Below are positions 21,255 to 38,288 of a stretch of DNA of 38,854 bases, one piece after another (position 1 is the stretch's first letter; each line of letters starts with the position of its first letter). The notes below the pieces were generated by a model that was not told the DNA's origin, did no database searches, and saw only the letters and a program-made list of their open reading frames with translations. Made by a program: the position numbers and the translations under genes. Source of the stretch: Albugo candida (taxonomy: Eukaryota); contig JBDOQK010000094.1 of NCBI GenBank assembly GCA_040437565.1, forward strand, positions 1 to 38,854, read 5' to 3'.

Positions 21255-21672
21255 TATTGCCTGTCTACATTTGTAATTCTGTAAATAAGTGGCTTGAACC
21301 ATTTCCTTTAAAATGAGTGATAATATTAGCGAAAAGCGCAACTCAAATAGTGATGACACCAGCNNNNNNNNNNNNNNNNNNNNNNNNNNNNNNNNNNNNN
21401 NNNNNNNNNNNNNNNNNNNNNNNNNNNNNNNNNNNNNNNNNNNNNNNNNNNNNNNNNNNNNNNAGACATTACGGAAGTATTAGTTCATTCTGGAGGATAT
21501 GCCAACAATCCAAGCAATCCTTTCGATCAGGACGATCCATTTGGCAACGTCACTTCGGACCGCGACATATTGGCGCCATACGAAATGGCATCTGATGTCG
21601 ACATCATTTTTTAGTATTGCCTGTCTACATTTGTAATTCTGTAAATAAGTGGCTTGAACCATTTCCTTTAAA

Positions 21673-22449: not shown

Positions 22450-22451
22450 AT

Positions 22452-23482
22452 CTAGACGTGATCTATAATGAATTTCTCAAGCTTTCGCTGCGTGAATTCG
22501 CCATTCAATTTCTCAAACATATTCACATAAGTTTCCACCAGCTCACTTTTATGGTACACTAGGAACACAGGCAAATCGGAGATTGAGAATGTTTTGTCTG
22601 CGTCGTGAGCCAACATCGCGAGTATCTACAAATAGTGCTCAGTGACAAATATGTGTATGTAGAGTGTACATGCCTGTATTTTTGGATGTAAATTGGCGAT
22701 TCGTTCGAGATGATTGTTTATCAGCTCGCAAGCGTAATTATCTGGATGATACAGATGCACGAGCGCGATTTCCCCTTCTTTCGCCGCATTGATACTATCT
22801 ACAAAATCGATCGGAGAAATGAATTTGAGACTTCCAAATTGTCTACGGATTGAATAAGATAAATGATTTCGTTCATTTTGCATGCTTCTGAGGTAGAGTG
22901 AACCTGCATTGAGCACGTTGTTGTAACTGGAATAACCGCTTTTCATTATAAACGCTCAAAACTTGAGGTAAGAGGGGATCAAATTCCTCGTCCGAGCTCT
23001 GCGAATCATTCAAATACTCCGGCTTAACAGCCCCTTTTGCAATTCGAAGTAAAATGTTCTCTCGTTCCATTTCTTTTGATTCTCGCTAGCAAATACGATT
23101 AGAGGTGGATCATGGACATTTCCCAATGTCAGTATCTTACTTCAAGTTGTCGATTTTTTGTGTACATTTTGTGATCGCGAATCACACCTTTAGGACCAGT
23201 GTTTCCAGATCGAAATTCTCGATAGAATTTTTTCCCCGATTGGCCCCAAGAAGTACTATCCGCAATATCTGCTTGCGCCCATGGACCCGCAGGATCGCGT
23301 ACGGAGCGGACTTTAATGTCTTGATCATCAGCGCTGTGTAAATGACTTGAGAGCTAAATAAAGATTCCAATACATGTGCGCTACCTCTCTATCGACTCTT
23401 CCGAATCGGATGCAATTGTACGATTGATCTGATCAGGATCAAGATCTTCCAATACATTGTGTACCGTAAAAAAGCGTTCCAT
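22452..23482 (-). CDS. Phosducin-like protein, PhLP1 subgroup (multi-exon)
   Basis: Spliced product MERFFTVHNV...SGNTGPKGVIRDHK (the TGPKGVIxD G-beta-gamma-binding motif), then thioredoxin-like domain QFGSLKFI...LVHLYHPDNYACELINNHL...DLPVFLVYHKSELV. Stop TAG at 22452-22454. Confidence 0.9.
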
Positions 23483-23717
23483 TTCGAAAAGCTTTCTTTG
23501 CGCCTCTCCGGATAAGTCTCAAACCTTGCAGATTTAATATCGCTGAAGAAAAGTGAACGGGCTAATACGTCTGTGACAGCTCTCCATGCGGGCAAACTGA
23601 TTGACTCGGCTACCTTCCCATGAAGCTCAGACTAGAGTGTACCACATCAGTGTAGCTGGTGTACCCTCCATCTATATTAGGCCAAATCCGAAATTGTACT
23701 GTCACCAACCAATTCGA

Positions 23718-25835
23718 ATGTTACAATCAAAAATGATCTCTTCAATGCGCAGAGCCGCAACACGGCAATCGCGTAGCATCATTTCGCGTGGTATCCCGAC
23801 AACGTTGCAACTTTCTCACAGTAGACAATATGATATCAAATCCGCTTCAATAACGCAAGAAAAGGCTTACTCTACCGGCACAACTCTGCAATCTCTAAGT
23901 AGCTCATTTGAAGCATTCGATTTTGAAAATGACGACTTAGAAGAACTTCCTAAGAAACGTTTATCCGCAGAATTCGATGGCAAAAAACCTATCACAGAGT
24001 TTGGGCTTTCTGAAACACTTCTCAGTAATCTCAAGAAAGCTGGAATTACAGATTTATTCCCTGTGCAAGTCCAGTCGTTCTCTACGATGATGGAAGGAGT
24101 CGATCTAGTTGGCCGATCCAAAACGGGATCCGGAAAGACTCTTGCATTTGGCTTACCTATTATCGAAAAACTACTCTCACGATCCGGCTCGAGAAGAAAC
24201 CCTGGAGCTTTGATCCTGCTACCAACTAGAGAATTAGCCACTCAAGTCTCGTCAGAGCTGAGTAGATTATCTCCTCAGCTCAAGACAGTAACCATTGTAG
24301 GAGGTGTTCCATACCATACCCAAGAGAGTCGAATCCGAGCTGGTGTCGACATTGTTGTTGGCACACCTGGGCGTATAATGGATCTGTTTGAGAAGAAAAC
24401 ACTATCGTTCGAAGATGTTCAATTCACTGTTTTAGATGAAGCCGATATGATGTTAAAATTTGGATTCCAAGAGGCCGTAGAGACAATTTTGTCTTGGGTA
24501 CCGGAAACACGTCAATGTGTCATGTGGTCAGCTACATTCCCAAAATGGGTCACTTCATTGACTAAAAAATATCTTAAAGATGCGGTGACGATCGATTTGG
24601 TTGGAAGCGAAGAAGCACACGTTCCAACTACGGTTAGTCACAAAGCTATCAATGTTCCTTTAAATCATCGAGTTGTGGCTTTACAACGAATATTGGAAAA
24701 ATTTGCATCTCAAGGGCAATCGCTTGTTTTCACAGAGACCAAACACGAAGCAAATGAGATAGCAAATGGATTGGATGGATGTAATGTGCAAGCACTCCAT
24801 GGAGACTTGTCTCAGGGTGTTCGCGCATCAACTATGCAAGATTTCCGAAAAGGAATTGTAAAAACATTGGCCTGTACCGATATTGCGGCACGTGGTCTTG
24901 ATATCGCAAATGTTGATCTGGTTGTGCATTATCGACTTCCAAATGATCGAGAGAATTTCGTGCATCGTGCAGGACGAACGGGCCGTGCAGGGAAATCAGG
25001 AACAAGTATCGTCTTCTTTGAGAATCAAGAGTATCGAGATATCAAAGATCTTGAAAATCGATTCAAAATTCAGTTTGCTCATGCGGCTGCGCCGGACGCT
25101 GATGATTTCCGTGACTCAAAAATAAAAGAAGTAACCAAACGACTACAGAAAGTATCCGACAAATCTTCTGATTTTCTGTCTGATGAAGCAACAAAATTGT
25201 ATGAAGCACATGGAATTCGAATTTTTAGTGCCGCTTTGAATTTACTTTGTGGGTTTGATAAAGGAAACACACTTTCCGTATCAATGCTTACTGGGAAATC
25301 CAACATGCTTACAATCCAGGTTGATGGTCTGACTTCAGTGAGTCAAGTGTCTGAGCTGTTACAAAGCGCTATTGGGGTCGCAGCTCAACGCGATATCGTA
25401 TCTGTCAACAAGAAATTCATAGTCGATATCCCATACTCGAGCTTTACTCAGCTACAGGAATCATTGCAAAACAATAACGTGGATGGAGTAACGGTGTCTC
25501 GAGTAACAGAACTTCCTCATATCACGTTACCACTAGGTGCAGAACGTCGATTTGGAAGTGGTCGTTATGGGGACAATAACTCTGGTTTTAGCGGTGGTCG
25601 TTATGGAGGAAACAGCTCTGGTTATGGTGGTGGTCGATACGGAGGGAGCAGATCTGGTTACGGTGGTGGCGATCGAGGCTTTAAGGACCGCAATCATCGT
25701 CGAAATGACTCTGGTGGCTCGAGAAACGGCAGATTTCGTTCAGGATCGTCTAATTCATGGGATAGCACGGACTCCCATCGAGACTCTTCACGTTCTGGAC
25801 GATCACACAAAAAACGAGATTCATTCGAGTGGTAG
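23718..25835 (+). CDS. DEAD-box RNA helicase, DDX21/RH3-like, with a G/R-rich tail and a probable mitochondrial presequence
   Basis: SKTGSGKT, PTRELA, TPGR, LDEAD, SAT, LHGDLSQ, ARGLDI, HRAGRTGRAG. GGRYGG repeats at the C-terminus. Arg/Ser-rich, acid-free N-terminus from the ATG at 23718. Confidence 0.95.
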   Translation: MLQSKMISSMRRAATRQSRSIISRGIPTTLQLSHSRQYDIKSASITQEKAYSTGTTLQSLSSSFEAFDFENDDLEELPKKRLSAEFDGKKPITEFGLSETLLSNLKKAGITDLFPVQVQSFSTMMEGVDLVGRSKTGSGKTLAFGLPIIEKLLSRSGSRRNPGALILLPTRELATQVSSELSRLSPQLKTVTIVGGVPYHTQESRIRAGVDIVVGTPGRIMDLFEKKTLSFEDVQFTVLDEADMMLKFGFQEAVETILSWVPETRQCVMWSATFPKWVTSLTKKYLKDAVTIDLVGSEEAHVPTTVSHKAINVPLNHRVVALQRILEKFASQGQSLVFTETKHEANEIANGLDGCNVQALHGDLSQGVRASTMQDFRKGIVKTLACTDIAARGLDIANVDLVVHYRLPNDRENFVHRAGRTGRAGKSGTSIVFFENQEYRDIKDLENRFKIQFAHAAAPDADDFRDSKIKEVTKRLQKVSDKSSDFLSDEATKLYEAHGIRIFSAALNLLCGFDKGNTLSVSMLTGKSNMLTIQVDGLTSVSQVSELLQSAIGVAAQRDIVSVNKKFIVDIPYSSFTQLQESLQNNNVDGVTVSRVTELPHITLPLGAERRFGSGRYGDNNSGFSGGRYGGNSSGYGGGRYGGSRSGYGGGDRGFKDRNHRRNDSGGSRNGRFRSGSSNSWDSTDSHRDSSRSGRSHKKRDSFEW

Positions 25836-25953
25836 CATTGTCAGCAAAAAGACTTTTTTACATCCACAGAGAATTGTTTTTCTTTGTATTGTAAACATTT
25901 GATATGAATAAAAGTATGCAACATACACTCAAAATAGTACTGCAATTATATGA

Positions 25954-26664
25954 CTACTGCTCCGGATCTGAGAATCCTCTGTGTCGAATTGCGATTGAAT
26001 TCTTTGATGGTGACGAGGAAGCGGATCGGATGGATTTTCGAAGTTGAATTCTATCCTGACGCGTCTTTCGACACGGAAGCAGCATATCGGAATCGTCCGC
26101 AAGAGCTCGTTGTAGCGAAGTGGATGGGAGTCGTAAGAATTGTGTCAAAATTCGCTCAGCTTGACCATTCGCTTTGCAATATTGTGTGTGATTGACCACG
26201 ATTTTCATTACATCGCGTAGAAAATGACTAAGGTCTAACGCTTGAGCCGCTCCATAACGTTGTGGATCGAGACCCAGCAGTGACTTTGTGGCAGGCGCTT
26301 TGAATTCTTTAAGTGTGTTGAGAAATGGAGCGCAGTTGTGACAATTGGAACACTCGGCTAAAAGTGTGTTTCTTAGACGTTTGAACTCCTCATACTCGCG
26401 AGATGCGTTGTATGCGGTTCCAGTGATTTGATTACAAGTTTCAACGTCAAAAATAAACTGACATTTGCTTCGTGATTTGACTGGTTTTTCTCGGATATAA
26501 AAGCGTAAAAGCTGGACAGAAAATGGACAGGTGTCTTGTTGATGTGACTGTAAAGGCACCGAATATTTGAGAAAAGATCGCTCTTGCTCACGTTCAAAGC
26601 GAGCCTTGCGTGTTTTTTCTAGCGCCGCGTTTGTTATCAGGTACGAAGCTGATTGATCCAACAT
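25954..26664 (-). CDS. Hypothetical protein with a PX-like domain and CxxCxxC
   Basis: Long ORF. REYEEFKRLRNTL resembles the PX RRY..F..L motif; CSNCHNC; LTQFL. Start assumed at the first ATG. Confidence 0.6.
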   Translation of the reverse strand: MLDQSASYLITNAALEKTRKARFEREQERSFLKYSVPLQSHQQDTCPFSVQLLRFYIREKPVKSRSKCQFIFDVETCNQITGTAYNASREYEEFKRLRNTLLAECSNCHNCAPFLNTLKEFKAPATKSLLGLDPQRYGAAQALDLSHFLRDVMKIVVNHTQYCKANGQAERILTQFLRLPSTSLQRALADDSDMLLPCRKTRQDRIQLRKSIRSASSSPSKNSIAIRHRGFSDPEQ

Positions 26665-27055
26665 GCTCGTAGTCGTAAATCTCAAAATGAGAGATTCCGT
26701 CAAACATACTTTTTATCCTAAGACGCGTCTTGTAAACAACATTGACCTATTCGTACTACCACTATTGTGTAGCTTATTCGTGACTTCCACCTCCCTGTCG
26801 AGAATCTAGAACCACGCGAAAGTAGTACGAAAGGAAAAACTGTGAGCCTCTGTGCTTCCATTCCTTAGGCCGTCCTCGGACGTATTTCACAAATATTCGA
26901 TTCTGTATACTGCGCACAACGTTGGGAATCCTTACGCATAGAATGACAACAAATGTCACAGGTGATGAGAGCACATAAAACGTGCTGTGGGGATGCGTTT
27001 GGTCAGTTGGTTAGCGAACGCACGTTCGATATTTTGGCTGAGCTTTTAGTAGTCT

Positions 27056-27850
27056 TTACCTAAGCAGATTCGCCTCACTTAGCGGAAAAGGAATTAAAGG
27101 TTCTTCTACGACTAATTCCATGTGTTCTTCAATTGTTTTGCGCTTATGAGCGAATACAAACTGATAAGCGGTCAACTGAGCAAAGAATGTGCCAGTGAAA
27201 TAATTCACAATGTGCGCGACTTCCGATATCGTGAAGGCAGTCTCCACATTGAATGCAGGGTCTCCATCTGAAGCTGCGTTTGCCATTTCATTCCCATCCT
27301 CGCCGCTTGATCCCACGCACGTCTGAAGCGCTTCCTTTTCGACCGCTTGTACCTCAGCGTTCTCGTGAATCAGCTGACGGAATAATCCGTACACAGCTTC
27401 TAGAGAAGGGAAAATCTCACTCAGAATGTCGACATGCTGACTGTTGTCTTTTGGGAAATGCGTGGGGGTCACTGCGTACTTGAAAAGTCGATTGATTAAT
27501 ATCATAAATCTGACGATTTTCCCTGTCGGTCGCAATCTGATTTCTTCGCACGCAAACTGTAATCCGTGAAACATAAGCTCCACGTACACGCTACTACGAG
27601 GATTATCAATGAAATGCTCAATCTCCAAAAGTTGCTGTAAGGCGCGAAATGTTTCTTGATCTTTTTCTGAACAAGTCGCCTCCACGAGCTGTTCCACAAA
27701 AGCGATCCATTTATCGAGTTGGAAAATCGGCGCAAACGCAAATATGTCGTTTGGAGACAGAAAGAGCGTCGAATGTGCTGTGGAGGTGTCGTTACGAGCT
27801 GCAGCTTGGGAAGTTTGACTTTTGTTGCGACAAGCGGATGATTTGCTCAT
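27056..27850 (-). CDS. CLAMP-domain (flagellar central-pair C1a-32/CFAP119-like) protein
   Basis: 264-aa ORF with VELMFHGLQFA and FTISEVAHIVNYFTGTFFAQLTAYQFVF, matching the CLAMP family pattern as I recall it. Confidence 0.7.
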   Translation of the reverse strand: MSKSSACRNKSQTSQAAARNDTSTAHSTLFLSPNDIFAFAPIFQLDKWIAFVEQLVEATCSEKDQETFRALQQLLEIEHFIDNPRSSVYVELMFHGLQFACEEIRLRPTGKIVRFMILINRLFKYAVTPTHFPKDNSQHVDILSEIFPSLEAVYGLFRQLIHENAEVQAVEKEALQTCVGSSGEDGNEMANAASDGDPAFNVETAFTISEVAHIVNYFTGTFFAQLTAYQFVFAHKRKTIEEHMELVVEEPLIPFPLSEANLLR

Positions 27851-27926
27851 ACGTTTTTATTATTTTGCTCTGTTTATAAAAATCTTTTACGATAAGGCAC
27901 AGCGACACTATCGGACAATTGATTTC

Positions 27927-29171
27927 TTAACTCGAATACAGATCAGAGACTTCAGAACTTATGGAGAGCTCTTTTGTGATACGATGAACAAATTGTTCAG
28001 GAAGTGGTCTTTCGATCATTTCATCGCTTCCGGGTCCAGATGGTAACGACACATTCATTTCCGAGCTTTTTGACGTGATGAAGTTCACTTCACGACCTTC
28101 CCAGGAAACATACACAATGCAACCATCCGTCTTATCGATCGCAACAGAGGGGACGATCCCTTTGCACTGTGCTTGAATGCTTTTCGAATTGATAATTTCC
28201 AAGCTTGACACTACGTTATCGAATAAGAGTTTGGTTGTCTTACAGGAATCCAAGGTGATAGTATTCACTTTGCCTTCTATGACGATACTCGCGTCTGTGC
28301 ATCCGAAAATGTATACTTTCTGTCGCAAATGTGTGTCGCTGACTGTTGTGACATTATCGTGTTGATACTCAATAAACCAATTGTCACTTCGTTTCTCGCA
28401 TGTTGCAGTCTTTGTAGTTGGGATTGCCTTCAGGTCGTTCGGTTTAATAGTACTTTTCTTCACTTCTGACGCATTTTCCACTTTGGTTGACACGTTCTTT
28501 GTGACTTGTGTTGATGCTGATTTTGTATAAGAGTTTACATCCTGACCGTGTACATTCCATTGCAAACCTTTGCCGTGATGATTTTTGACATATTCCATCA
28601 AAGCAACCAAAAGACTTTTAAATGTCGATACAAATTCAATTTGGCTCGGATCAGTAGCTTTATATTCGATACGAATTTTATTGCCCCAGAAATCGGAACC
28701 TCCAATATACGACTCGACAAATGCTTTAGGGGCTGCTTCCTCGCAAACCCATCCAAGTGTCTGTATTCCTTCATTCACCATCTTGACATGATTCGGATTT
28801 TCTCGAGCATTGTTTCGCAATGTTCCCATTTCTTTCAAACAAATTTGTATTCCGCTGAGAAGCTCAGAAGTGAGTTGAGAAGGCTTTCGACATTCACTCG
28901 CCATTACAATGAAATCGCGTTGCACTTTAAATGCCTTTTGAGTGATTTCTCCCAATTTCCGAATATCATCGCCCAAAGGATCGCAGCTTTTGATAAATGG
29001 TGGGAGATGTTGAGCGACTAAATCGTCGTACGCGCAAATGCTGGGGTCCACAGAGGTTTTGGAAGCGGGGGGTTGAACCACAGGCGTATTTAAGCCAACT
29101 TTATCTTCCACAAGCTTGAGTCGCTCAGTCAGAGTCTGCAGTAATTGCTGGAGGGGCTGGACTGCTTCCAT
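27927..29171 (-). CDS. SRV2: Adenylyl cyclase-associated protein (CAP/Srv2), 414 aa
   Basis: N-terminal coiled coil (LTERLKLVE). Helical folded domain (NHVKMVNEGIQTLGWV, FWGNKI, YVKNHHGKGLQWN). CARP domain (VYIFGC, GKVNTITLDSC, VPSVAIDKTDG, TSKSSEMNV, ERPLPEQF). Confidence 0.95.
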   Translation of the reverse strand: MEAVQPLQQLLQTLTERLKLVEDKVGLNTPVVQPPASKTSVDPSICAYDDLVAQHLPPFIKSCDPLGDDIRKLGEITQKAFKVQRDFIVMASECRKPSQLTSELLSGIQICLKEMGTLRNNARENPNHVKMVNEGIQTLGWVCEEAAPKAFVESYIGGSDFWGNKIRIEYKATDPSQIEFVSTFKSLLVALMEYVKNHHGKGLQWNVHGQDVNSYTKSASTQVTKNVSTKVENASEVKKSTIKPNDLKAIPTTKTATCEKRSDNWFIEYQHDNVTTVSDTHLRQKVYIFGCTDASIVIEGKVNTITLDSCKTTKLLFDNVVSSLEIINSKSIQAQCKGIVPSVAIDKTDGCIVYVSWEGREVNFITSKSSEMNVSLPSGPGSDEMIERPLPEQFVHRITKELSISSEVSDLYSS

Positions 29172-29357
29172 GAGTTTGGAAGCAAAAGGGAGATAAAATA
29201 CTAGTAGGATATTACAAAAGTAGTCGTAGAGAAAGCAGCTTCTTACAGATATAGTACTCATTGAGTAAAAGGTTGGTAGTGCAATTGGAAACATTATTTG
29301 CAGTAGACAAAATACAACAAGCAACTTGATACAATGCTCAAACTAAGACGATAGACA

Positions 29358-29927
29358 TTAAGGACGAATATCGGTACTGTATGCATGATTTTCAGCAACG
29401 TGGCCCTCATGATGAGTTGGATGCAGTTTGTCGCCATGCAACTTGGATGGATGCGTCTGTGGATGAGCCATTCCTCCTTCGTGGTGGGTTTTGCCAGTCA
29501 TTTTGTCTTTTGTGCGATGCACTTTGTTCTTCACTTTTTCCGCGAGACCCGGCTTCTTCACACGTCCACGTGTTGGTGAATGATAGTAATCGCCTTCAGA
29601 GCTTGAACTACTTGAGCTGCTTGACGATCTGTGCGCTCGTGAAGTATGTCCCATGGTGTTGTGTCCAGAAGTCATACCATGTCCAGTGTGTCCCGTGGTG
29701 TCATGACTAGAAGTCACACCGTGCCCTGTTGTGGTGTGCCCCGTTCCGTGTGTTGTAGTGTGCCCCGTTCCGTGTGTTGTAGTGTGCCCCGCTTCATGGT
29801 GCTTGCTCGGCATTATCTTTTCCTTCAGATCGTGAGCCTTGTCGTGGATCTTATCCATCATTCCTTCCTTCTTGTGCGGAGTAGTGCTTCCAGTAGTGTG
29901 TTGGTGTTCGTGGCCGGTTGTATTCAT
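29358..29927 (-). CDS. Dehydrin-like (LEA group 2-like) hydrophilic His/Thr/Gly-rich protein, 189 aa
   Basis: K-like segments KKEGMMDKIHDK...LKEKIMPS and KKPGLAEKVKNKV. S-segment [23 protein letters not shown] repeats. No Cys, Trp or Phe. A TATA-like element lies at ~30054-30063. Confidence 0.75.
   Translation of the reverse strand: MNTTGHEHQHTTGSTTPHKKEGMMDKIHDKAHDLKEKIMPSKHHEAGHTTTHGTGHTTTHGTGHTTTGHGVTSSHDTTGHTGHGMTSGHNTMGHTSRAHRSSSSSSSSSSEGDYYHSPTRGRVKKPGLAEKVKNKVHRTKDKMTGKTHHEGGMAHPQTHPSKLHGDKLHPTHHEGHVAENHAYSTDIRP
29734..29791. repeat. 24-bp coding tandem repeat (GHTTTHGT), about 2.5 copies
   Basis: gtgtgccccgttccgtgtgttgta twice, plus a partial copy. Confidence 0.9.
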
Positions 29928-30178
29928 GTTTTGTTATCGAAATCAATAATGAAGAGACTGATCCTTTCCTCTTTCAGAGACAATTCGAAAAACGATCTTT
30001 CTTCATGTCGCATCCTTCGTTCTCCCTACAAACTCTGGATGCGTTGTCTTTTTCTATATAAAAGGCGATCATTGGGGCAGATCAGCTTCTGTGACACGTT
30101 TTTTATTTTAACCGAATCGACAGACTATTTGGTGTCATACGGTGCTGCGTGAGCCACATCAAATTGACTGAATTCACT

Positions 30179-32179
30179 TCATTCGATTTCTTTTCCCATT
30201 GGAATTGCGATATGGTTCTTTCGCTGTGGCGTTTCGTGAGAATGCACCCAGCAGACAGGACAAAAATGAGAAGACTGTTCGCATTGCTCGCATCGCAAAA
30301 CCGCCGCTGCGTTCCCACATTCTTCACATTTTCCTTTCCGAATAAGTCGACCTCGAATCCGCGTGAAATACTTGTGCTCTATTTCTTTTGCTTTTTTTCG
30401 TGCTGCGTACCCTCGCGCAACTCTTTGAATAATATTGACAGCTATTTGCTCCCTTCCTTTCGCTTGTTTGCGCTCTTCTTGTCGAAATGCGATTCGCTCG
30501 ATCTCTTTGGTATTGTTGCGCACAGCACTTTCAATTTCATTGATCAAGTTGCATGTTTTCCTGCGGAGTGAATTTCTTTCATATGCAATGTGCGACTGGA
30601 TATCTTCCTCTCGTTTCAAAGCCATACATTTGGTGTACCATTCAAATATATTTGGATGAGCGACCGTCTCCGATGCGATGGTGAAATTCGATTTGTCGGA
30701 ATGCGGACCTTCAGAAGCAAGGACGCTAGGATGAAGGATCTGATTCGTGCAGAATGCTTTCCACAATTGGGAACTATGGATATCACGAACATCTTCTTCG
30801 GCTTGGTCAACCTCTGGATTCAAAAAGCGAGAAATAGCTGCAGGCTCATCATCACTAGCAGAATCATACGCATCATTAAAGCTTTTGTTTTGGATCACAA
30901 ATTTCATATCGGCTTCGTCTTGGTCTTCTTGGATGTCGTTCTGACGCCAAACATGTGATTTTACATCCTTTTCGGGTCGCAAGTAATGGTACAAGTTGTA
31001 TTGTTTGCCAGCGATAAAAGTCTCAAACCATTTTCGATCATCACGCTCGATGGAAATGCAGCGAACCGTATTCATGTGAGCTTTATACGCCGCATACTTT
31101 CGCTCAAGACTCCAGTCCTTCATGTCCTCGAACATGGATACATCATCAAATAGGCTTTCTATATCCTCCTGCGTCGGCTTATGATCGCTTTTTGACAGGC
31201 TTGTTAAGACGTTTAGTCGACTAGTACAACTTCGCTGGATCAGTTCCGCATGCACAGCTCGTTCTTCTTGGGATGTTCGATATTGCTTTTTATAATCAGC
31301 CAGCTTTTCAGCGACATTCTGTGTCAACGATTTTATCTCATCATGTAACTCTCGACGGCTGTATTTTTTTGCTACACTTGGAAATCGAGTCTCTGTCAAG
31401 CCTTTTATTCTGAAAAGCAACAATGAAGCCATTGAGTTTTTAACATTTCGAGAATCAATTCTTACCGCTTCTCAGCTTGTTTACGAAGCTCCGTATATTC
31501 TTCAGTGGGCGCTCGACTTTTTCGTACTGCATCAATTGCCTCGGACAGCATCGTTTCTCGTGATAAAAATCGATCTTGCTCCCTTATATACAAAGAATCA
31601 AGCACGTCATCATCTTCTGCAAGCACTTTTGCATCCAAAAGACTTTGTGCTTCATGGGTCAACAATCGAAATCCAAAAGGATCGAATTCTCTCGGTACAG
31701 GATTCACCGCTTTTCGCTTTGTTCGGAATCGATATCGATGCCACTGGTTCTGTATTTTCCGAGCGCATGTGATTTTTCGAGCAGTTTCAATATCGGTCAA
31801 GTTTTGTGCGCTAATTCCCCTTAGAAACTCGAGTTCTGTCTGTTTTCGAATGATACTTTTCTGACGCTGTTTTGATTGCTTTAGAAACACTGTGGTACAT
31901 CTCAGCTCAAAGCATCACTTACTGAAAAGCCGGAGTCTTACCAGCTTGCTCGCGTTGGAAATTTATCAGCGGTCGAAACTCGTGTCGAATTAAATGACCT
32001 CGACGCATTGCCTGAAGTCGTGTAATCGCATGCTAACAGAATAAAGGAAATGAGTTGGATAGCTGATACTGTTTAAAGGCTTTTACAAGATATCGTTCAT
32101 ATTTTCTTCGGGTCGAGTAGCCTCGATACAGTTTCTGAATGATAGCTGCAGCATCACCCGGTGCCCTTTGACATTCCAT
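30179..32179 (-). CDS. Multi-IQ-motif, coiled-coil protein with a C-terminal B-box zinc finger (multi-exon)
   Basis: IQ motifs AAIIQKLYRGYSTRRK, AITRLQAMRRGHLIR, ARKIQNQWHRYR, IIQRVARGYAARKK. B-box CEEC...LRCEQC...FCPVCWVHSH...RKNH. Confidence 0.8.
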
Positions 32180-32206
32180 TTATTTAAAAGCCAATAGCTG
32201 CCAGAG

Positions 32207-33306
32207 ATGAAGCATCTTCCATTTCAAAGCTTTCTGGTAAAGTTACAGCTCAATTTGTCATCGAGGACAAAAGAAGAAGTCGTAAAGGATACAATAAACG
32301 TATGTCAGGCTCATTTCGTAAACATTTACATTTTGTCATTTCATTGAGTCGATAGAAAGCAAGTGTGGCAGCCATTTTTCGATGGAAAGAACGAAAGCGG
32401 AAAACTCTGCAGATACTATTCATTCGACGGGCAGACAACAAGAGGGATGTATGGAGTGGTCAAGTCGCAATTCCTGGAGGAAGACGTCAGTTGAAATCAT
32501 TTTCAGAGACGGTAGGAGGCAATTCTTCAAAGAAATGGGAATCAAGTAGAGAGACAGCGATACGTGAAACATTTGAAGAAGTGGGATTGAGACTGGATAA
32601 GCCGTACGTAGAACAACATCCTGTTTGTAAAAGCGTCATCCGATCGTCTCAATTGATGTAGTTATGTCCGATGGATCGGTCAATTAGAACCGATCCAAAC
32701 ACACTTGCGCTCAATATACGTCACAACCGAAGGTACCTTTCTATAACAAAACACTTTGTACGCATATCTGATGACTCGGTAGTCTTTTTAGTTGACAGAT
32801 CAGAAGAGGAGCAGGCTGTTATTTTAAAGACACAGCCCAAAGAGGTAGCAAACGTTTTTTGGGTCAATGTGGAGGAACTATACAATTCCAACCGATATCA
32901 CAATCTTATTTGGCCGATGAAAACCTACTTTGAAAAACTGACCGGCTTCCGTGTGCTCGGGCAACTGCTACATCGCATCGTTGGAGATACGATATTTCCT
33001 TGTATTTATCTCCCACGACCTTGCCCAAAGGTCCAAAACGAAGATGATTCCTCGATTCCTCGACACCATTCCGAGTATATATTGTGGGGTCTTACATTAC
33101 AAATCGTATTGAAATTATGCGAAGGAGGAGGTTGCCCGCTTCCGTTCGCAAACTCTCCTTTCCGGTGTACAAATAGATGTGGAGCATCACTACTTTCTTT
33201 ATTTCGTCTACATTACCGTTCAGCAATGATTTTAGCAATCGGACTATCCATCGGCCTTTCTGGAGCTTACAAGCTTGTAAAAGCCGAGTTTACTCAAAGT
33301 AATTGA
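32207..33306 (+). CDS. Nudix hydrolase (NUDT7/8/PCD1 CoA-diphosphatase-like) with a C-terminal hydrophobic helix (multi-exon)
   Basis: ASVAAIF, ILFIRRA...WSGQVAIPGG, ETAIRETFEEVGL, QPKEVANVFWV, ILWGLT. First intron 32300-32355 is in frame from the ATG at 32207. Confidence 0.88.
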
Positions 33307-33534
33307 ATAATGAGTTTGATCAATCAAACAGTCACAAGGTGGCCTCGAACCATATGAACCAAGCAATACCTGGCCAACTTGCATGGTGCGTAGAAGCGTC
33401 GCAATTAGCAGCTGCTAGCGAATGTGTTAGAGAGTGTCAGAATCCCTGCCGCAATCGTATTTACTATGTTTGCACGATATTCTCAACTAGAATTCTAGTT
33501 ATAAATAAGCTCATTTGTTTGTGATCTGTCCACA

Positions 33535-34902
33535 ATGAGAGGAATGGAACCGCAGGAGATTCATAAAGAAAACTCATTTTGGGGCAGCACCAAGGATGGA
33601 TTTAGTAAAACATCCTTATCTCCATTCAGTCATCGTCGCCGAATACGAAATCGTCTCGGCAAAATGAGCTTTATGTCAGAATTAGAGCGTGCTTCTGCTT
33701 CATTGACTCATCGTTTGGGGCGGCGTAAGACGAGAAATACGGTTGATGAAGATGAACTGAGTGGGTACCATATCTTACGCATCTGTCTACATTCCGTTGA
33801 AGGATTGAAGGAACGACATAAAAGCGCCCGAAGAAACGCTTTCTTCTGTAAAGCGTACCTGAGTAAAAGTACTATGCATCGAGGAAGTCGAGCGAGTCTT
33901 CGTCGAATGTTAGCTTCCGATAATAATGATTATGCTGAAATGAACCATGCCAAGCGTGCATCAGAAGGTAGCTCTTCCATCATTCCGGTTCGTTTAGTAC
34001 GAACGCATTCTCAATCTCATTTAAACGGTAAAATTACTTGGAATGAGCACTTTCAAATTCCAGTATTGGATCCACAAGTTGACATATTATGCATACGTGT
34101 CAAATCCTCCAACGCCATTTCTTCGCCAACGATCGCAACATGCTCCATACCGATCAGTAATTTATCACTAAATCAGACCCTCGATCAATGGTTTAATTTG
34201 ATGGATGGAAAGAAAGATGCCGGCCGTATACGACTCAATATGCGATTCATTTTCCCTGGTAATTCATCGAACCATAGCACGCGATCTGAAGATTTTTCCT
34301 CTTCATTTGTGAAATACAACAGAGCGTTGGTCTATGAGCCAGCCGATCCATTGGAAGAAGAATTAAGGTCTATCAAGAAGCCTTTTTCACAAAATCCAAC
34401 TGATAACACATCGCTAAAGACAATGGTGAACGTATCTATTGGAACCAGAGAGCCCAGGCAAAGTGTATTTCACCAACAAAAGACCTTGCCACCACCACCG
34501 ACCACAACATGGAAGCATCGTATTGCATCAGATATTCCAAGACGCAGCACACAGAACGTGATGGAGTGTTTTAGTCCAAGTAATCACTCGCTTATTGATC
34601 AAGAAACGTATTCGGCAATTTTGAATCGTATCAGTCATAACGTTCTGTTGGAGGACGATGAACAAAGTGGAGATGACAGATCGGATCGCGACTCAGGTCA
34701 TCAAGACAACGTTTTAATGGAAGAAGACGATGATGAGGATAATGAGATTACATGGATATATGCAGCGCAATCCAGTGTTCCTAAAAAAAACGCAAAAACA
34801 GGTCGTAAAGGTAGCCAAATGGTTGTCAATGATCATACTCAACTTCCCATATTGGAAGATGTGCATTTCGACGTAGAAGAAGTCGATTTTTGTAATTACT
34901 GA
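33535..34902 (+). CDS. C2-domain protein, 455 aa
   Basis: ILRICLHSVEGL...FCKAYL, ITWNEHFQIPVLDPQVDILCIRVK, IPISNL...DQWFNL...AGRIRLNMRF; disordered acidic tail. Confidence 0.85.
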   Translation: MRGMEPQEIHKENSFWGSTKDGFSKTSLSPFSHRRRIRNRLGKMSFMSELERASASLTHRLGRRKTRNTVDEDELSGYHILRICLHSVEGLKERHKSARRNAFFCKAYLSKSTMHRGSRASLRRMLASDNNDYAEMNHAKRASEGSSSIIPVRLVRTHSQSHLNGKITWNEHFQIPVLDPQVDILCIRVKSSNAISSPTIATCSIPISNLSLNQTLDQWFNLMDGKKDAGRIRLNMRFIFPGNSSNHSTRSEDFSSSFVKYNRALVYEPADPLEEELRSIKKPFSQNPTDNTSLKTMVNVSIGTREPRQSVFHQQKTLPPPPTTTWKHRIASDIPRRSTQNVMECFSPSNHSLIDQETYSAILNRISHNVLLEDDEQSGDDRSDRDSGHQDNVLMEEDDDEDNEITWIYAAQSSVPKKNAKTGRKGSQMVVNDHTQLPILEDVHFDVEEVDFCNY

Positions 34903-34974
34903 GAGTAGTAGTATCAAAGTATAAAATATTGCGATATATAATTAGAGCTTCAGAGCTTTTTCAGCGCTTGAAAT

Positions 34975-35655
34975 ATGAATGCATTTAAGCGTCGATTTCA
35001 ATTAGAAAATCAACTTGTTTTTTATATGTCCTATCACCGCATCTGGCCTATTCTCATTACGGCTCAAGTCATTTTAGCAAGTATTTCACCAGGATGGATA
35101 AACTCAATGAATTACTCGGACTCATCGCAGCTAGAGCAATGTTTGCGTTTGAATTACGCGGCGCTAATGGCAGCTATCTACATTCCGTGGTACATTATGC
35201 TGGATCCAATGTACGCACAGCGCAATCTGTTTTGTCCATCTTACTGATCTTTTTTTCCAAAAACGGTAGTGCAGGCTCCTTAGGAGCGGTATTGGTACTA
35301 GCATCTACGTTATTTTCAAACTATGTGAGCTCAATTTCACCGATATACATTGGCTTGGAAGCGTGGAAGATTGCACTACCGCTTCATCTCATCGGATGGG
35401 TTGCGCAGGTACAAGAAACCTACAATTATTTCCAGCACTAATCAAGACTTGTTTGAGAAGTTTATCGGTCATGCAATTTATGAAAAGAAAAAGCCAGCAC
35501 TACTACACAGTTTGGACCAAGCACTGATAACAGCACCATTGTTTGTTCTGCTGGAAATATTATTTTACGCTGGATACAAGCCTAAATTACATCACCGAGT
35601 GCTTCGACAAGTTTTAGAAAATCAGGAGCCACAAACACATGCTAAATGTATATAG
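34975..35655 (+). CDS. Mpo1/DUF962 family ER membrane protein (3 exons)
   Basis: FQLENQLVFYMSYH, YIMLDP-IAGSLG, LHLIGWVAQ-FIGHAIYEKKKPALLHSLDQALITAPLFVLLE. Introns at 35211-35269 and 35409-35460. Confidence 0.85.
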
Positions 35656-36051
35656 TGATTCGGCTATAACGTTTACTTGTATGTGCTGATGACCAGTAAA
35701 AATAGACGCATGGCCAATGTATTTCTAATGCGTGGGAGGGTCGTACGTAAAAACTCGGGACGAAGTAGTAACGAAAATGGCTGTACGTTATAAACCTCAA
35801 TTCATTACGTGACACTTATTCTAGTCTCAGGACATACGATTGGTTTTTAAATCCCCATATGCTGATGCTGCGTTTATCGACCAACAAAGTAATCTGATGC
35901 AGCGGTAAAGAAGTGACAGGTGCGAAAGAGGCGTTCAATTAGACAAGAGACGAGGTATTGGTTGTCTAAATCGCATCGCGGCTTGACTGAGAATATTCGC
36001 ATTGATCAATTTACCTCAGAAACCCCAAACAGAAAAATCGAAACTTAGAAC

Positions 36052-38288
36052 ATGTGGAAACTCGAATCACTAGCCATTTTATCATCACTCTATATATCAT
36101 CCGGAAGGTCGTTTGATTTCGTCAAGAACATTTACGATTTCAATCCACAAGAAGTCACCCAACTTCCAGCATTTCCCACCAAAGTCGTACCGTGTGATGA
36201 TTCTCAGCTCCCACCTGTGCCAATACAGTCTTTTCCTACGTTCGGGAATGGGGGTTTGACGCAATTGAAAGACAAATATGCCCAACTACCAAATCTTCGA
36301 AATCCAGTTGATGAAACTCAGCTCCCATCTGTGCCAATAGTGCCTTTTCCTACGACCGACAACGGAGATTTGACGCAAGTGAAAGACAAATATGCCCAAC
36401 TACCAAATCTTCGAAATCCAGTTGATGAAACTCAGCTCCCATCTGTGCCAATAGTGCCTTTTCCTACGACCGACAACGGAGATTTGACGCAAGTGAAAGA
36501 CAAATATGCCCAACTACCAAATCTTCGAAATCCAGTTGATGAAACTCAGCTCCCATCTGTGCCAATAGTGCCTTTTCCTACGACCGACAACGGAGATTTG
36601 ACGCAAGTGAAAGACAAATATGCCCAACTACCAAATCTTCGAAATCCAGTTGATGAAACTCAGCTCCCATCTGTGCCAATAGTGCCTTTTCCTACGACCG
36701 ACAACGGAGATTTGACGCAAGTGAAAGACAAATATGCCCAACTACCAAATCTTCGAAATCCAGTTGATGAAACTCAGCTCCCATCTGTGCCAATAGTGCC
36801 TTTTCCTACGACCGACAACGGAGATTTGACGCAAGTGAAAGACAAATATGCCCAACTACCAAATCTTCGAAATCCAGTTGATGAAACTCAGCTCCCATCT
36901 GTGCCAATAGTGCCTTTTCCTACGACCGACAACGGAGATTTGACGCAAGTGAAAGACAAATATGCCCAACTACCAAATCTTCGAAATCCAGTTGANNNNN
37001 NNNNNNNNNNNNNNNNNNNNNNNNNNNNNNNNNNNNNNNNNNNNNNNNNNNNNNNNNNNNNNNNNNNNNNNNNNNNNNNNNNNNNNNNNNNNNNNTGAAA
37101 GACAAATATGCCCAACTACCAAATCTTCGAAATCCAGTTGATGAAACTCAGCTCCCATCTGTGCCAATAGTGCCTTTTCCTACGACCGACAACGGAGATT
37201 TGACGCAAGTGAAAGACAAATATGCCCAACTACCAAATCTTCGAAATCCAGTTGATGAAACTCAGCTCCCATCTGTGCCAATAGTGCCTTTTCCTACGAC
37301 CGACAACGGAGATTTGACGCAAGTGAAAGACAAATATGCCCAACTACCAAATCTTCGAAATCCAGTTGATGAAACTCAGCTCCCATCTGTGCCAATAGTG
37401 CCTTTTCCTACGACCGACAACGGAGATTTGACGCAAGTGAAAGACAAATATGCCCAACTACCAAATCTTCGAAATCCAGTTGATGAAACTCAGCTCCCAT
37501 CTGTGCCAATAGTGCCTTTTCCTACGACCGACAACGGAGATTTGACGCAAGTGAAAGACAAATATGCCCAACTACCAAATCTTCGAAATCCAGTTGATGA
37601 AACTCAGCTCCCATCTGTGCCAATAGTGCCTTTTCCTACGACCGACAACGGAGATTTGACGCAAGTGAAAGACAAATATGCCCAACTACCAAATCTTCGA
37701 AATCCAGTTGATGAAACTCAGCTCCCATCTGTGCCAATAGTGCCTTTTCCTACGACCGACAACGGAGATTTGACGCAAGTGAAAGACAAATATGCCCAAC
37801 TACCAAATCTTCGAAATCCAGTTGAATATTCTCAGCTCCCACCTGTGCCAATCATGCCTTCTCCCACGACAGACAATGGGGACCCGACGCATTCGAAAGA
37901 CCTGGAGGTAATTCTCAAGCTGATCAACGATGCCCGATCCGAAAATCACTGTGGAAAACTTAAGTCTAGCCCAGAATTAATTCAAGCAGCCTGTACCCAA
38001 TCTTCGTTCATGGGCTTATCAATGCATATCGGTCATATTGGAGCTCATGGTCTCCATATTGGTGCTCGTGTCCAACTCACAGGGCTGAAGTTTTCGGCTG
38101 TTGCTGAAAACGTTGCTAAGGGACAGCCAGACATGCTGTCTCTTCACGATAGTTTCATGAACTCAGATGGCCATCGTGCTAATATCATGAATTGCGCTTA
38201 TGACAGCTTTGGATTTTGTCCGTCTGTTGGCAAAGATCAAGAGATGTATTACACTCAAACATTTGCCAAAACATTAGGCGAACCTTAG
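36052..38288 (+). CDS. Secreted CAP/SCP (PR-1 superfamily, YkwD-type) protein with a long 38-aa tandem-repeat region
   Basis: Signal-peptide-like MWKLESLAILSSLYISSGRS. CAP domain LINDAR...AENVAKGQ...FMNSDGHRANIMN...YYTQTFA. The frame break at 36996-37095 is due to the 100-N placeholder. Confidence 0.88.
36196..37890 (+). repeat. 114-bp coding tandem array: at least 12 identical full units plus diverged terminal units
   Basis: The unit encodes DETQLPSVPIVPFPTTDNGDLTQVKDKYAQLPNLRNPV. Six copies at 36310-36993 and six at 37140-37823, with a gap between. Confidence 0.98.

What the first reader, a model, noticed from the sequence alone, without database searches (positions are those of the whole stretch)
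29358..29927. Plant-style dehydrin (K-S-K architecture) embedded among oomycete-type housekeeping genes
Seen: an intronless, very hydrophilic 189-aa ORF containing RAHR-S10-EGD-YYHSPT-RGRVKK-PGLAEKVKNKV, an N-terminal KKEGMMDKIHDK..LKEKIMPS, and Gly/His/Thr spacer repeats. Known: land-plant dehydrins have LHRSGS4-10(E/D)3, then a basic RRKK, then the K-segment EKKGIMDKIKEKLPG. That order is reproduced here. K/S-segment dehydrins are regarded as plant proteins; fungal 'dehydrin-like' proteins use DPR motifs instead. Inference: either plant-to-pathogen horizontal transfer (perhaps via mRNA, since the intron usual in the plant S-segment is absent) or striking convergence. It could support desiccation tolerance of dry-dispersed sporangia or oospores. 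It lies in a gap-free stretch 186 bp from CAP/Srv2, which argues against host contamination.
Basis: partly seen in the sequence, partly recalled or inferred. Interest (0 to 1): 0.85.

Follow-up and report, generated by a model that had tools for sequence, protein, structure and literature searches.

The report
Dehydrin-like stress protein in white rust
A white-rust oomycete (Albugo candida) carries a real gene for a small, disordered, histidine-rich protein whose motifs and their order closely resemble plant dehydrins, stress proteins so far known by sequence only from land plants; whether it was borrowed from a plant or arose independently remains open.

Summary
Window 29358-29927 (- strand) is an intronless 189-aa ORF: very hydrophilic, with no Cys, Trp or Phe, and laid out K-like unit / Gly-Thr-His spacer / Ser10 segment / basic linker / K-like unit. 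Named cluster members place the window in Albugo candida, where the protein is filed as uncharacterised.

It is not host contamination. Three assemblies from three studies each carry CAP, this ORF and the IQ/B-box gene on one contig, and codon GC3 matches the neighbours.

The motifs are far beyond what the composition would give. Each K-like unit meets 9 of 12 constrained K-segment positions, which 10 of 200,000 shuffles reached.

Formal membership fails. Pfam Dehydrin scores 24.6 bits (27.7 for the S-K part) against a cut-off of 30.6. No plant or other oomycete relative appears at E<=0.001 among 1.84 billion representatives.

Best reading: a resident gene, probably transcribed, that works like a dehydrin. 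Descent from plant dehydrins by an old transfer (about 0.5) and convergence (about 0.35-0.4) could not be separated here.

No paper found links dehydrins to oomycetes. Decisive next steps are searches of other Albuginales genomes and profile comparison with group-specific dehydrin models.

The parts
29358..29927 (-). Coding sequence of the dehydrin-like protein (189 aa plus stop), with no intron
   Evidence: The exact protein is catalogued, and a 181-aa cluster mate is named 'unnamed protein product [Albugo candida]' / 'Uncharacterized protein'. The RNA-derived contig of run X1 crosses it without a splice.
29805..29873 (-). K-like unit 1 (residues 19-41)
   Evidence: Meets 9 of 12 constrained K-segment positions, or 10 of 12 if a 7-residue insertion is allowed after position 9 (post hoc). 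The N-terminal 60 aa match the last K-segment of the Pfam Dehydrin profile (positions 127-149) at only 10.7 bits, E 0.77. This is the highest helical hydrophobic-moment peak of the protein, 0.44. Invariant in the 4 full-length members of 6; the two 158-aa forms begin at Met24, inside this unit.
29643..29804 (-). Gly/Thr/His-rich spacer (residues 42-95; 13 His), containing a 24-bp tandem repeat at 29727-29791
   Evidence: Composition. Tandem repeat of period 24, 2.7 copies, 97% matches. One 24-nt copy is missing in runs X1, X5 and X13 and in 5 of 6 cluster members.
29589..29642 (-). S-segment (residues 96-113): AHR, ten Ser, then EGD
   Evidence: The ten Ser use five different codons (read), so this is not a simple microsatellite. 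Alone it scores 9.5 bits on Dehydrin profile positions 71-87. The run is 10 Ser long in all 6 cluster members, while R100 is Gly in 2 of 6 and G112 is Ala in 1 of 6.
29559..29588 (-). Linker (residues 114-123) ending in the basic stretch RGRV, directly before the KK of unit 2
   Evidence: Plant YSK dehydrins carry RRKK at this place (Malik 2017; Melgar & Zelada 2021). The linker is 10 residues long, against 3-6 in 56% of plant cases.
29487..29558 (-). K-like unit 2 (residues 124-147)
   Evidence: Meets 9 of 12 positions, or 11 of 12 with the same 7-residue insertion (post hoc). Adding it to the S-segment raises the Pfam score from 9.5 to 23.3-27.7 bits. Aligns without gaps to unit 1, with 12 invariant columns of 36. 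Invariant in all 6 cluster members.
29361..29486 (-). His-rich C-terminal tail (residues 148-189; 10 His)
   Evidence: It belongs to the internal duplication: N-half against C-half gives a local score of 95, against 50 +/- 7.8 in shuffles, reached by 0 of 3000.
29928..30178 (-). 251-bp upstream intergenic region (the promoter must lie here), shared with the 3' end of the IQ/B-box gene
   Evidence: Sequence read. No functional element was tested. One ACGTGTC lies at 30093-30099, at chance level.
29172..29357 (-). 186-bp spacer to the start codon of the CAP/Srv2 gene (27927-29171, - strand)
   Evidence: CAP_N and CAP_C match at E 8e-45 and 8e-49. The cluster mate is named for Albugo candida.

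Best explanation
This is a genuine gene of the white-rust oomycete Albugo candida, most probably transcribed. It encodes a cytosolic, intrinsically disordered 'hydrophilin' built like a dehydrin and most likely acting like one.

Build (shown). Two Lys-rich K-like units could each form an amphipathic helix. They flank a Gly/Thr/His-rich flexible spacer and a Ser10 tract followed by acidic residues.

Proposed action (inferred from what is established for plant dehydrins):
- On water loss or cold, the K-like units fold onto membranes or partly unfolded proteins and shield them.
- The 32 histidines bind metal ions and anionic lipid head groups.
- The Ser tract is a casein-kinase-2-type phosphorylation switch beside a basic patch.
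- The likely use is survival of dry-dispersed sporangia and resting oospores.

Origin (inferred, about even odds). The likeness reflects common descent with land-plant dehydrins through an old plant-to-Albugo transfer. Afterwards a heptad was inserted into the K-segment and the K unit with its spacer was duplicated.
For: Resident gene:
- Runs X5, X13 and X1, from three studies, each hold the whole 3.8-kb stretch CAP / ORF / IQ-B-box on one contig of 8-15 kb at 99%+ identity.
- 14 of 24 listed runs hold at least half of the sampled words; I laid 4 of the 24.
- GC3 is 0.474, inside the neighbours' range of 0.32-0.50.

Transcription (weak):
- The X1 contig lacks a 56-nt GT..AG intron of the neighbouring gene, so it derives from RNA, and it runs across the ORF.
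- RNA library X15 gave two contigs, 29505-29695 and 29760-29912. Both lie inside the ORF, and nothing else of the 3.8 kb was covered.

Dehydrin likeness:
- PF00257 is the best Pfam hit, at E 3.9e-5 for the whole protein and 4.3e-6 (27.7 bits) for residues 95-160. These residues align to profile positions 74-122, that is S-segment followed by K-segment in the profile's own order.
- The S-segment alone gives 9.5 bits, and S plus K2 gives 23.3 bits.
- None of 30 other window ORFs of at least 90 aa hits PF00257 at E<=10.
- Motif-rule shuffles give 5e-5 for whole-protein shuffles, 1.5e-4 to 2.6e-4 for local shuffles, and 1.35e-4 for the flanks of the Ser run.
- Both K-like units carry His where most dehydrins have Pro, as in KS-type dehydrins (Melgar & Zelada, passage).
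- There is no Cys or Trp, as stated for dehydrins (review, passage).
- The model is disordered: mean pLDDT 48, no secondary structure, and slightly higher pLDDT over the K units.
- The three best ESM Atlas feature hits are dehydrin clusters at 0.81-0.83, which the tool rates as a lead only.

Selection on the protein:
- The Ser10 run is encoded by five different codons.
- The Ser10 run is invariant in all 6 cluster members. K unit 2 is too, and K unit 1 is invariant in the 4 full-length members; the two 158-aa forms begin at Met24, inside it.
Against: Against family membership and homology:
- The Pfam score is below the gathering cut-off of 30.6 bits in every version tested. By my own scaling of the E-value, this score range is noise in a database-wide search.
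- phmmer against 1.84 billion representatives found only the protein's own cluster at E<=0.001.
- Three word-indexed searches found only the same cluster at the thresholds used: E<=0.01, E<=10.
- So no plant dehydrin, no other oomycete protein and no Albugo laibachii protein is detectably related, although the A. laibachii proteome is in that collection.
- K unit 2 without the Ser run gives no Pfam hit.
- Neither K unit matches the core (D/E)KIK(D/E)K exactly: 5 of 6 and 4 of 6 positions. Pro-Gly at the end is missing from both.
- The features are a mosaic of different plant groups: His at the Pro position as in the KS type, (L)HR as in the FSK/YSK types, and a basic linker as in the YSK type.
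- R100 of the 'HR' is Gly in 2 of 6 cluster members.
- Gly+Ala is 15.9%, against the '>25%' stated for dehydrins.

Against the proposed mechanism:
- The helical hydrophobic moment peaks at the K units, but the peak is not unusual for this composition (P = 0.195).

Limits of the statistics:
- Shuffles reject chance, not convergent selection for Lys-rich amphipathic helices and CK2-type Ser tracts.
- The finding came from a very large scan, so a look-elsewhere effect applies.

Limits of the expression evidence:
- Contigs cannot show the strand, ends or level of an RNA.
Confidence: 0.5

Rival explanations
1. Convergence. This is an Albugo-specific disordered hydrophilin that arose within the lineage, by duplication of a Lys/His-rich unit. 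It reached K-like helices and a CK2-type Ser tract independently of plants. It would work like a dehydrin without being related to dehydrins.
For: - No relative outside its own 90% cluster was found in four searches.
- Pfam is below its cut-off.
- The two K units are copies of each other, with a shared 7-residue extension unknown to me in plants. One origin therefore explains both matches.
- The features are a mosaic of different plant dehydrin groups.
- An amphipathic Lys-rich helix gives hydrophobic residues at positions 5, 9 and 13 for free (my inference).
- Ser tracts followed by acidic residues are common in disordered proteins; the same stretch also touches Pfam SR-25 at 12-15 bits.
Against: - The agreement extends to details that function does not obviously require: Gly at position 4, the order K-x-G-hydrophobic-hydrophobic-acid-K-I/V, His-Arg before the Ser run, and a basic patch right before the K unit.
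- The Pfam profile aligns S then K in its own order at E 4e-6.
- Other hydrophilins solve the same task with different motifs, for example the fungal DPR type (review passage).
Confidence: 0.37
2. Host-plant contamination or a chimeric assembly: the ORF is really a Brassicaceae dehydrin joined to Albugo DNA by mis-assembly.
For: - Albugo is an obligate biotroph, so its sequencing samples contain host DNA (general knowledge).
- The window has ten 100-N gaps.
Against: - Three assemblies from three studies carry the ORF and both oomycete neighbours on single contigs of 8,142, 11,672 and 14,703 nt, with no loose ends.
- The nearest gaps are about 7-8 kb away on either side.
- GC3 lies in the neighbours' range.
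- No plant protein matches at E<=0.001, whereas a host gene would match near 100%.
Confidence: 0.01
3. A secreted effector that mimics host dehydrins inside the plant cell.
For: - The organism is a biotrophic plant pathogen.
- The protein looks like a host protein family.
Against: - The N-terminus has no hydrophobic stretch that could serve as a signal peptide (sequence; GRAVY -1.38).
- No effector-type family was hit in Pfam.
Confidence: 0.03
4. A spurious ORF in non-coding, repeat-bearing DNA.
For: - Low-complexity composition.
- A 24-bp tandem repeat lies inside the ORF.
- A 168-aa ORF overlaps on the opposite strand.
Against: - The frame is open for 189 codons, with an internal protein-level duplication.
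- The Ser run uses mixed codons.
- The repeat polymorphism is in frame, at 24 nt.
- Pieces of an RNA library fall only inside the ORF.
- The opposite-strand ORFs have no Pfam hit.
Confidence: 0.03

Closest known systems
Land-plant dehydrins of the SKn / YnSKn type (LEA group 2, Pfam PF00257)
   Same: - The S-segment has His-Arg before a Ser run and acidic residues after it.
- A basic patch and a K-segment-like unit follow it.
- The spacers are rich in Gly and Thr.
- There is no Cys or Trp, and the protein is strongly hydrophilic and disordered.
- PF00257 is the best Pfam match, with S and K in the profile's order (motif descriptions).
   Different: - The organism is an oomycete; dehydrins were not found even in green algae (Malik 2017; Melgar & Zelada 2021).
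- The score is below the Pfam cut-off.
- An extra K unit lies before the S-segment. K-S-K is not among the standard architectures, and 'KSK' does not occur in Riley et al. 2019.
- There is no Pro-Gly end.
- The S-to-K linker is 10 residues.
- His content is 17%.
- Each K unit can be read as a K-segment with a 7-residue insertion.
KS-type (H-K-S) plant dehydrins such as Arabidopsis HIRD11
   Same: - His-rich, with a K-segment upstream of the S-segment.
- His instead of Pro near the end of the K-segment.
- The coding region has no intron.
- These dehydrins too are poorly detected by PF00257: 17 of 62.
   Different: - Judged by the paper's verbal description, which I did not test with a profile, no N-terminal H-segment is visible.
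- KS dehydrins lack the Leu-His-Arg triad, whereas this protein has Ala-His-Arg.
- There is no Lys-rich B-segment.
- A second K unit follows the S-segment.
Fungal 'dehydrin-like' proteins with DPR motifs (Alternaria, Aspergillus, Tuber)
   Same: - Stress-linked hydrophilic proteins of a non-plant microbe, called dehydrin-like (review passage).
   Different: - They are defined by repeats of a DPR motif. This protein has no DPR string and carries K-like and S-like segments instead.
Immunologically 'dehydrin-related' proteins of brown algae (Fucus) and cyanobacteria
   Same: - They are non-plant, and Fucus is also a stramenopile (review passage).
   Different: - They are known only from anti-K-segment antibody reactions and no sequences were characterised. 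Here there is a sequence.

Membership tests
Dehydrin (Pfam PF00257) | Score at or above Pfam's gathering cut-off (30.6 bits) | tested here: not met
   24.6 bits for the whole protein; 25.2 for the 181-aa allele and 27.7 for residues 95-160; 23.3 for residues 96-140.
Dehydrin (literature definition) | At least one K-segment, consensus XKXGXX(D/E)KIK(D/E)KXPG with core (D/E)KIK(D/E)K | tested here: inconclusive
   Two units each meet 9 of 12 constrained positions; shuffles give P 5e-5. The core is matched at 5 of 6 and 4 of 6 positions, and Pro-Gly is absent. The authors' formal 'two-of-three' rule is in a supplementary figure that I could not open.
Dehydrin (literature definition) | S-segment: (L)HR-S/T, a run of 4-10 Ser, then acidic residues | tested here: met
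   Ala-His-Arg, Ser10, Glu-Gly-Asp (description). Flank P = 1.35e-4. Leu is replaced by Ala, and Arg is Gly in 2 of 6 alleles.
Dehydrin (literature definition) | S-segment N-terminal to a K-segment, joined by a short linker with a basic RRKK-like patch | tested here: met
   The order S, basic patch, K unit 2 is present, and the Pfam profile aligns it in register. The linker is 10 residues rather than 3-6.
Dehydrin (literature definition) | No Cys or Trp; highly hydrophilic; disordered | tested here: met
   No C, W or F; GRAVY -1.38. Mean pLDDT 48.2 with no secondary structure.
Dehydrin (literature definition) | More than 25% Ala or Gly (review statement) | tested here: not met
   Gly 23 plus Ala 7 of 189 residues is 15.9%.
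Dehydrin | Detectable sequence relatives among plant dehydrins | tested here: not met
   Only the protein's own cluster is found at E<=0.001 among 1.84e9 representatives. Matches below about 41 bits would not show at that database size (my estimate from the database size).
Dehydrin | Heat solubility, cryoprotection of enzymes, helix gain on membranes | not testable with these tools
   Needs bench work.
KS-type (H-) dehydrin | N-terminal H-segment and Lys-rich B-segment; His at the Pro position of the K-segment | tested here: inconclusive
   His at that position is present in both units. By eye, against the verbal description, no H-segment or B-segment is seen. The authors' KS profile was not available.
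Fungal DPR dehydrin-like proteins | Repeated DPR motif | tested here: not met
   The 189 residues contain no DPR string.

The most novel reading that the evidence does not exclude
This would be the first dehydrin outside land plants to be defined by sequence, with both K-segments and an S-segment. An obligate plant parasite would have acquired it from a plant by an old horizontal transfer, remodelled it (a heptad-extended K-segment, duplication into K-S-K, and heavy His enrichment), and kept it to protect its dry-dispersed spores.
Probability: 0.4. Interest if true: 0.8.

Novelty: new variant of a known kind. Interest (0 to 1): 0.62.

Why it matters
Dehydrins are treated as an invention of land plants. 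Genome surveys found none in green algae, and outside plants only antibody cross-reactions or unrelated 'DPR' proteins are known.

A sequence-level K/S-segment protein in an oomycete would mean one of two things. It could be a rare plant-to-parasite gene transfer. Or it could be a clear case of convergent evolution of a disordered protein's short motifs, which would show which residues of the K- and S-segments function really requires.

It also gives a testable candidate for how white-rust spores survive drying. The protein is filed in public records as uncharacterised. In nine full-text searches I found no paper linking dehydrins to Albugo, or to any protein encoded by an oomycete or other stramenopile.

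Tried and rejected
Searches that found nothing new:
- Four protein searches returned only the protein's own 90% cluster: whole protein; residues 15-150 at E<=10; a two-row profile of the K units against longer proteins; and exhaustive phmmer.
- As a result I could not bring any plant dehydrin sequence into the session. I could not build my own dehydrin profile, run composition-matched decoys against it, or make a tree.
- PDB sequence search: 0 hits at E<=10.
- Metagenome scans with CAP and with the protein itself: no relative in either. Synteny in Albugo laibachii or other oomycetes therefore could not be checked.
- tblastn of the protein against the window: no second copy.

Leads too weak to use as evidence:
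- ESM Atlas on CAP gave no lineage information.
- The Atlas structure hits for the protein all have TM below 0.3 and are meaningless for a disordered protein.
- The AlphaFold single-sequence model has no secondary structure, so no fold search was made.
- The hydrophobic moment peaks at the K units but is not exceptional against shuffles (P = 0.195).
- A plant ABRE-like ACGTGTC in the promoter: 8 sites in the window against 5.75 expected, so chance level.
- Codon usage is too weak to argue for or against transfer.
- Runs X16-X20 have small word shares. I did not lay them, so they count for nothing.
- In run X15 the flanks of the ORF had no cover. That alone proves nothing about their expression.

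Not available:
- Supplementary files of Malik et al. 2017, which hold the formal K-segment rule, were closed.
Full report
**What is there**

Window 29358-29927 (- strand) is a 189-aa ORF with an ATG start. The protein has pI 9.5 and GRAVY -1.38. It is 17% His, 16% Thr, 12% Gly, 10% Ser and 9% Lys, and has no Cys, Phe or Trp.

Its layout is as follows:
- Residues 1-18: a short N-terminal tail.
- Residues 19-41: K-like unit 1.
- Residues 42-95: a Gly/Thr/His spacer with 13 His. It includes a 24-bp tandem repeat of 2.7 copies at 29727-29791.
- Residues 96-113: an S-segment of Ala-His-Arg, ten Ser, then Glu-Gly-Asp.
- Residues 114-123: a linker ending in a basic patch.
- Residues 124-147: K-like unit 2.
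- Residues 148-189: a His-rich tail.

The ten Ser are encoded by five different codons (read). The tract is therefore held at the protein level rather than by slippage of one codon.

**Whose gene it is**

The exact protein is catalogued. A 181-aa cluster mate is named 'unnamed protein product [Albugo candida]' / 'Uncharacterized protein'. The neighbouring CAP protein has a named A. candida cluster mate as well, and the Hsp90 encoded at 16294-18417 clusters at 90% or more with Albugo laibachii Nc14.

The neighbours are ordinary eukaryotic genes: Hsp90, a DEAD-box helicase, a flagellar CLAMP-domain protein, CAP/Srv2 and an IQ/B-box protein.

The ORF sits in a gap-free stretch, 21464-36995, between 100-N blocks.

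**Not contamination**

Of 24 listed public runs, 20 hold the 1.5-kb probe or part of it. Fourteen hold at least half of its words, across many studies. I laid 4 of the 24:
- X5, X13 and X1, from three studies, each carry the whole 3.8-kb stretch CAP / ORF / IQ-B-box on one contig (11,672, 14,703 and 8,142 nt). Each has 8-10 base differences and no loose ends.
- All three lack one 24-nt repeat copy. This corresponds to the 181-aa form found in 5 of 6 cluster members.

GC3 of the ORF is 0.474, within the neighbours' range of 0.32-0.50. No plant protein matches at E<=0.001.

**Transcription: a hint, not proof**

The X1 contig skips 56 nt in the neighbouring gene. On the - strand these are a canonical GT..AG intron (31465-31410) that joins two ORFs in frame. 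X1 therefore derives from RNA, and its contig runs through the ORF.

In X15, a water metatranscriptome, the only two contigs on the 3.8 kb lie inside the ORF (29505-29695 and 29760-29912). They are 99-100% identical to the window and share one synonymous difference with X13.

Contigs cannot give the strand, ends or level of an RNA.

**Is the dehydrin likeness more than chance?**

Motif rule. Malik et al. 2017 (section 11, read) give the K-segment conservation by position: Lys at 2, 8, 10 and 12; Gly at 4; hydrophobic at 5, 9 and 13; acidic at 7 and 11; Pro-Gly at 14-15.
- Residues 19-33 and residues 124-138 each meet 9 of these 12 positions.
- In 200,000 whole-protein shuffles, 10 reached 9 once and none reached it twice.
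- Shuffling only within each Lys-rich region gives P = 2.6e-4 and 1.5e-4.
- With the Ser run kept intact, 'His-Arg before and at least 2 acidic residues in the next 3' has P = 1.35e-4.

Internal duplication. The two K units are copies of one another: they align without gaps with 12 of 36 columns invariant. The duplication extends into the His-rich parts, with a score of 95 against 50 +/- 7.8 that 0 of 3000 shuffles reached. The two K matches are therefore not independent.

A post hoc observation. If 0-8 residues may be inserted after position 9, both units are best with the same 7-residue insertion, reaching 10 and 11 of 12 positions. None of 20,000 shuffles reaches 10. Each unit thus reads as a K-segment lengthened by two helical turns.

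**Pfam**

PF00257 Dehydrin is the best family for the whole protein (E 3.9e-5, 24.6 bits). That is below the gathering cut-off of 30.6 bits. Partitioning the score gives:

| Part | Result |
|---|---|
| Residues 95-160 | 27.7 bits, E 4.3e-6, on profile positions 74-122 |
| S-segment alone | 9.5 bits |
| S-segment plus core of K2 | 23.3 bits |
| N-terminal 60 aa | 10.7 bits (E 0.77), on the profile's last K-segment |
| Residues 111-189, 114-160 and 1-100 | no hit |

None of the 30 other window ORFs of at least 90 aa hits PF00257 at E<=10.

So K2 adds most of the score, but only in register behind the Ser tract. The total stays in a range that is noise in a database-wide search (my scaling of the E-value).

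PF00257 is known to be insensitive. It found 83% of dehydrins, and only 17 of 62 of the KS type (Melgar & Zelada 2021, passages).

**Relatives**

Exhaustive phmmer over 1.84 billion representatives found only the protein's own cluster. Three word-indexed searches found only the same cluster. PDB gave nothing, and two metagenome scans gave nothing.
- A recent transfer from a host plant is excluded.
- No other oomycete protein, including any from the A. laibachii proteome that is in the collection, is detectably related.
- At that database size, matches under roughly 41 bits are invisible (my estimate). Distant homology to plant dehydrins is therefore neither shown nor excluded.

The ESM Atlas feature search put three dehydrin clusters first (0.81-0.83). 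The tool states that scores under 0.9 are leads only.

**Comparison with plant groups**

These points come from passages of Melgar & Zelada and Malik et al..
- Both K units have His where most dehydrins have Pro. This is the KS-type habit.
- The (L)HR triad before the Ser tract belongs to the FSK and YSK types and is absent from the KS type.
- An RRKK-like patch between S and K is the YSK habit.

The protein is thus a mosaic and does not point to one donor group. K-S-K is not a standard architecture, and 'KSK' does not occur in Riley et al. 2019.

Within the species the following vary: Arg100 is Gly in 2 of 6 members, Gly112 is Ala in 1 of 6, His149 is Tyr in 1 of 6, and the spacer repeat differs in copy number. 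The Ser10 tract and K unit 2 are invariant in all 6. K unit 1 is invariant in the 4 full-length members; the two 158-aa forms begin at Met24, inside it.

**How it most likely works**

Shown:
- The protein is disordered: mean pLDDT 48.2, pTM 0.11, no secondary structure, and slightly higher pLDDT over residues 21-40 and 121-150.
- The two highest helical hydrophobic moments sit on the K units (0.44 and 0.41, against a mean of 0.17). That maximum is not unusual for the composition (P = 0.195).
- There is no signal-peptide-like N-terminus.

Inferred from what reviews state for dehydrins:
- The K units fold into amphipathic helices on membranes or client proteins during water loss or cold.
- His-rich stretches bind metals and lipid head groups.
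- The Ser tract, followed by acidic residues, fits the casein kinase 2 pattern S-x-x-D/E (established knowledge, recalled).

That the protein serves the dry-dispersed sporangia or the oospores of white rust is my inference and is untested.

**Origin**

Dehydrins were not found in seven green algal genomes (Malik 2017) or in any algal genome surveyed (Melgar & Zelada 2021). Non-plant reports are immunological only (Fucus, cyanobacteria) or concern fungal DPR proteins (review).

If the likeness is homology, a plant-to-Albugo transfer is the economical reading. It would have to be old and followed by remodelling.

If it is not homology, this is a notable convergence of short linear motifs.

Shuffles cannot separate these two readings. 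The finding also came from a very large scan, so a look-elsewhere effect applies. I put homology at about 0.5 and convergence at about 0.37.

**Literature**

Nine full-text searches gave no paper linking dehydrins to Albugo or to any oomycete- or stramenopile-encoded protein, and none citing the protein's accession numbers.

What I read of each paper:
- Malik 2017: passages plus sections 10 and 11.
- Melgar & Zelada 2021: passages.
- Riley 2019: passages.
- Szlachtowska & Rurek 2023: passages.

Supplements were closed, so the formal K-segment rule of Malik et al. could not be applied.

**Verdict**

The gene is resident in Albugo candida and dehydrin-like in architecture and probably in function. 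Family membership is not established, and the origin is unresolved.

Noticed in passing
window 31410-31465 (- strand): A 56-nt GT..AG intron joins the ORFs 31466-31890 and 30179-31409 in frame into one IQ/B-box gene. It is spliced out in the contig of run X1, while X5 and X13 keep it.
   Followed up: partly
window 29727-29791: The 24-bp tandem repeat encodes an 8-residue Gly/Thr/His unit and varies in copy number. The window has one copy more than runs X1, X5 and X13 and than 5 of 6 catalogued protein forms.
   Followed up: yes
window 29505-29912 (run X15): A water metatranscriptome holds two near-identical pieces of this ORF and nothing of its neighbours. That is an odd habitat for an obligate plant parasite. 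It could reflect a very abundant spore transcript, airborne spores, or carry-over between libraries.
   Followed up: no
proteins P0004 and P0006 (158 aa): Two catalogued forms start at Met24, inside K-like unit 1. I did not determine whether this reflects truncated contigs, a different gene call or an upstream change.
   Followed up: no
window 1426-1980 (-) and 12180-12683 (+): Reverse-transcriptase fragments (RVT_2, E 7e-8; RVT_1, E 1e-12), that is retrotransposon remains. Both lie next to 100-N gaps.
   Followed up: no
window 37854-38285 (+): An ORF with a cysteine-rich secretory protein (CAP/PR-1-like, PF00188) domain at 38.7 bits. It may be a secreted protein of the pathogen.
   Followed up: no
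window 20348-20662 (+): An ORF matching part of V-type ATPase subunit D (PF01813, E 9e-18, profile 39-141 of 196). It is probably one exon of a split gene, or is cut by the gaps at 19834-19933 and 21364-21463.
   Followed up: no
window 30093-30099 (-): ACGTGTC, the core of the plant ABA-response element, lies about 170 nt upstream of the ORF's ATG. Window-wide there are 8 sites against 5.75 expected, so this is probably chance.
   Followed up: yes
window, ten places (794-893 ... 36996-37095): There are ten gaps of exactly 100 N, so the window comes from a scaffolded draft assembly.
   Followed up: yes
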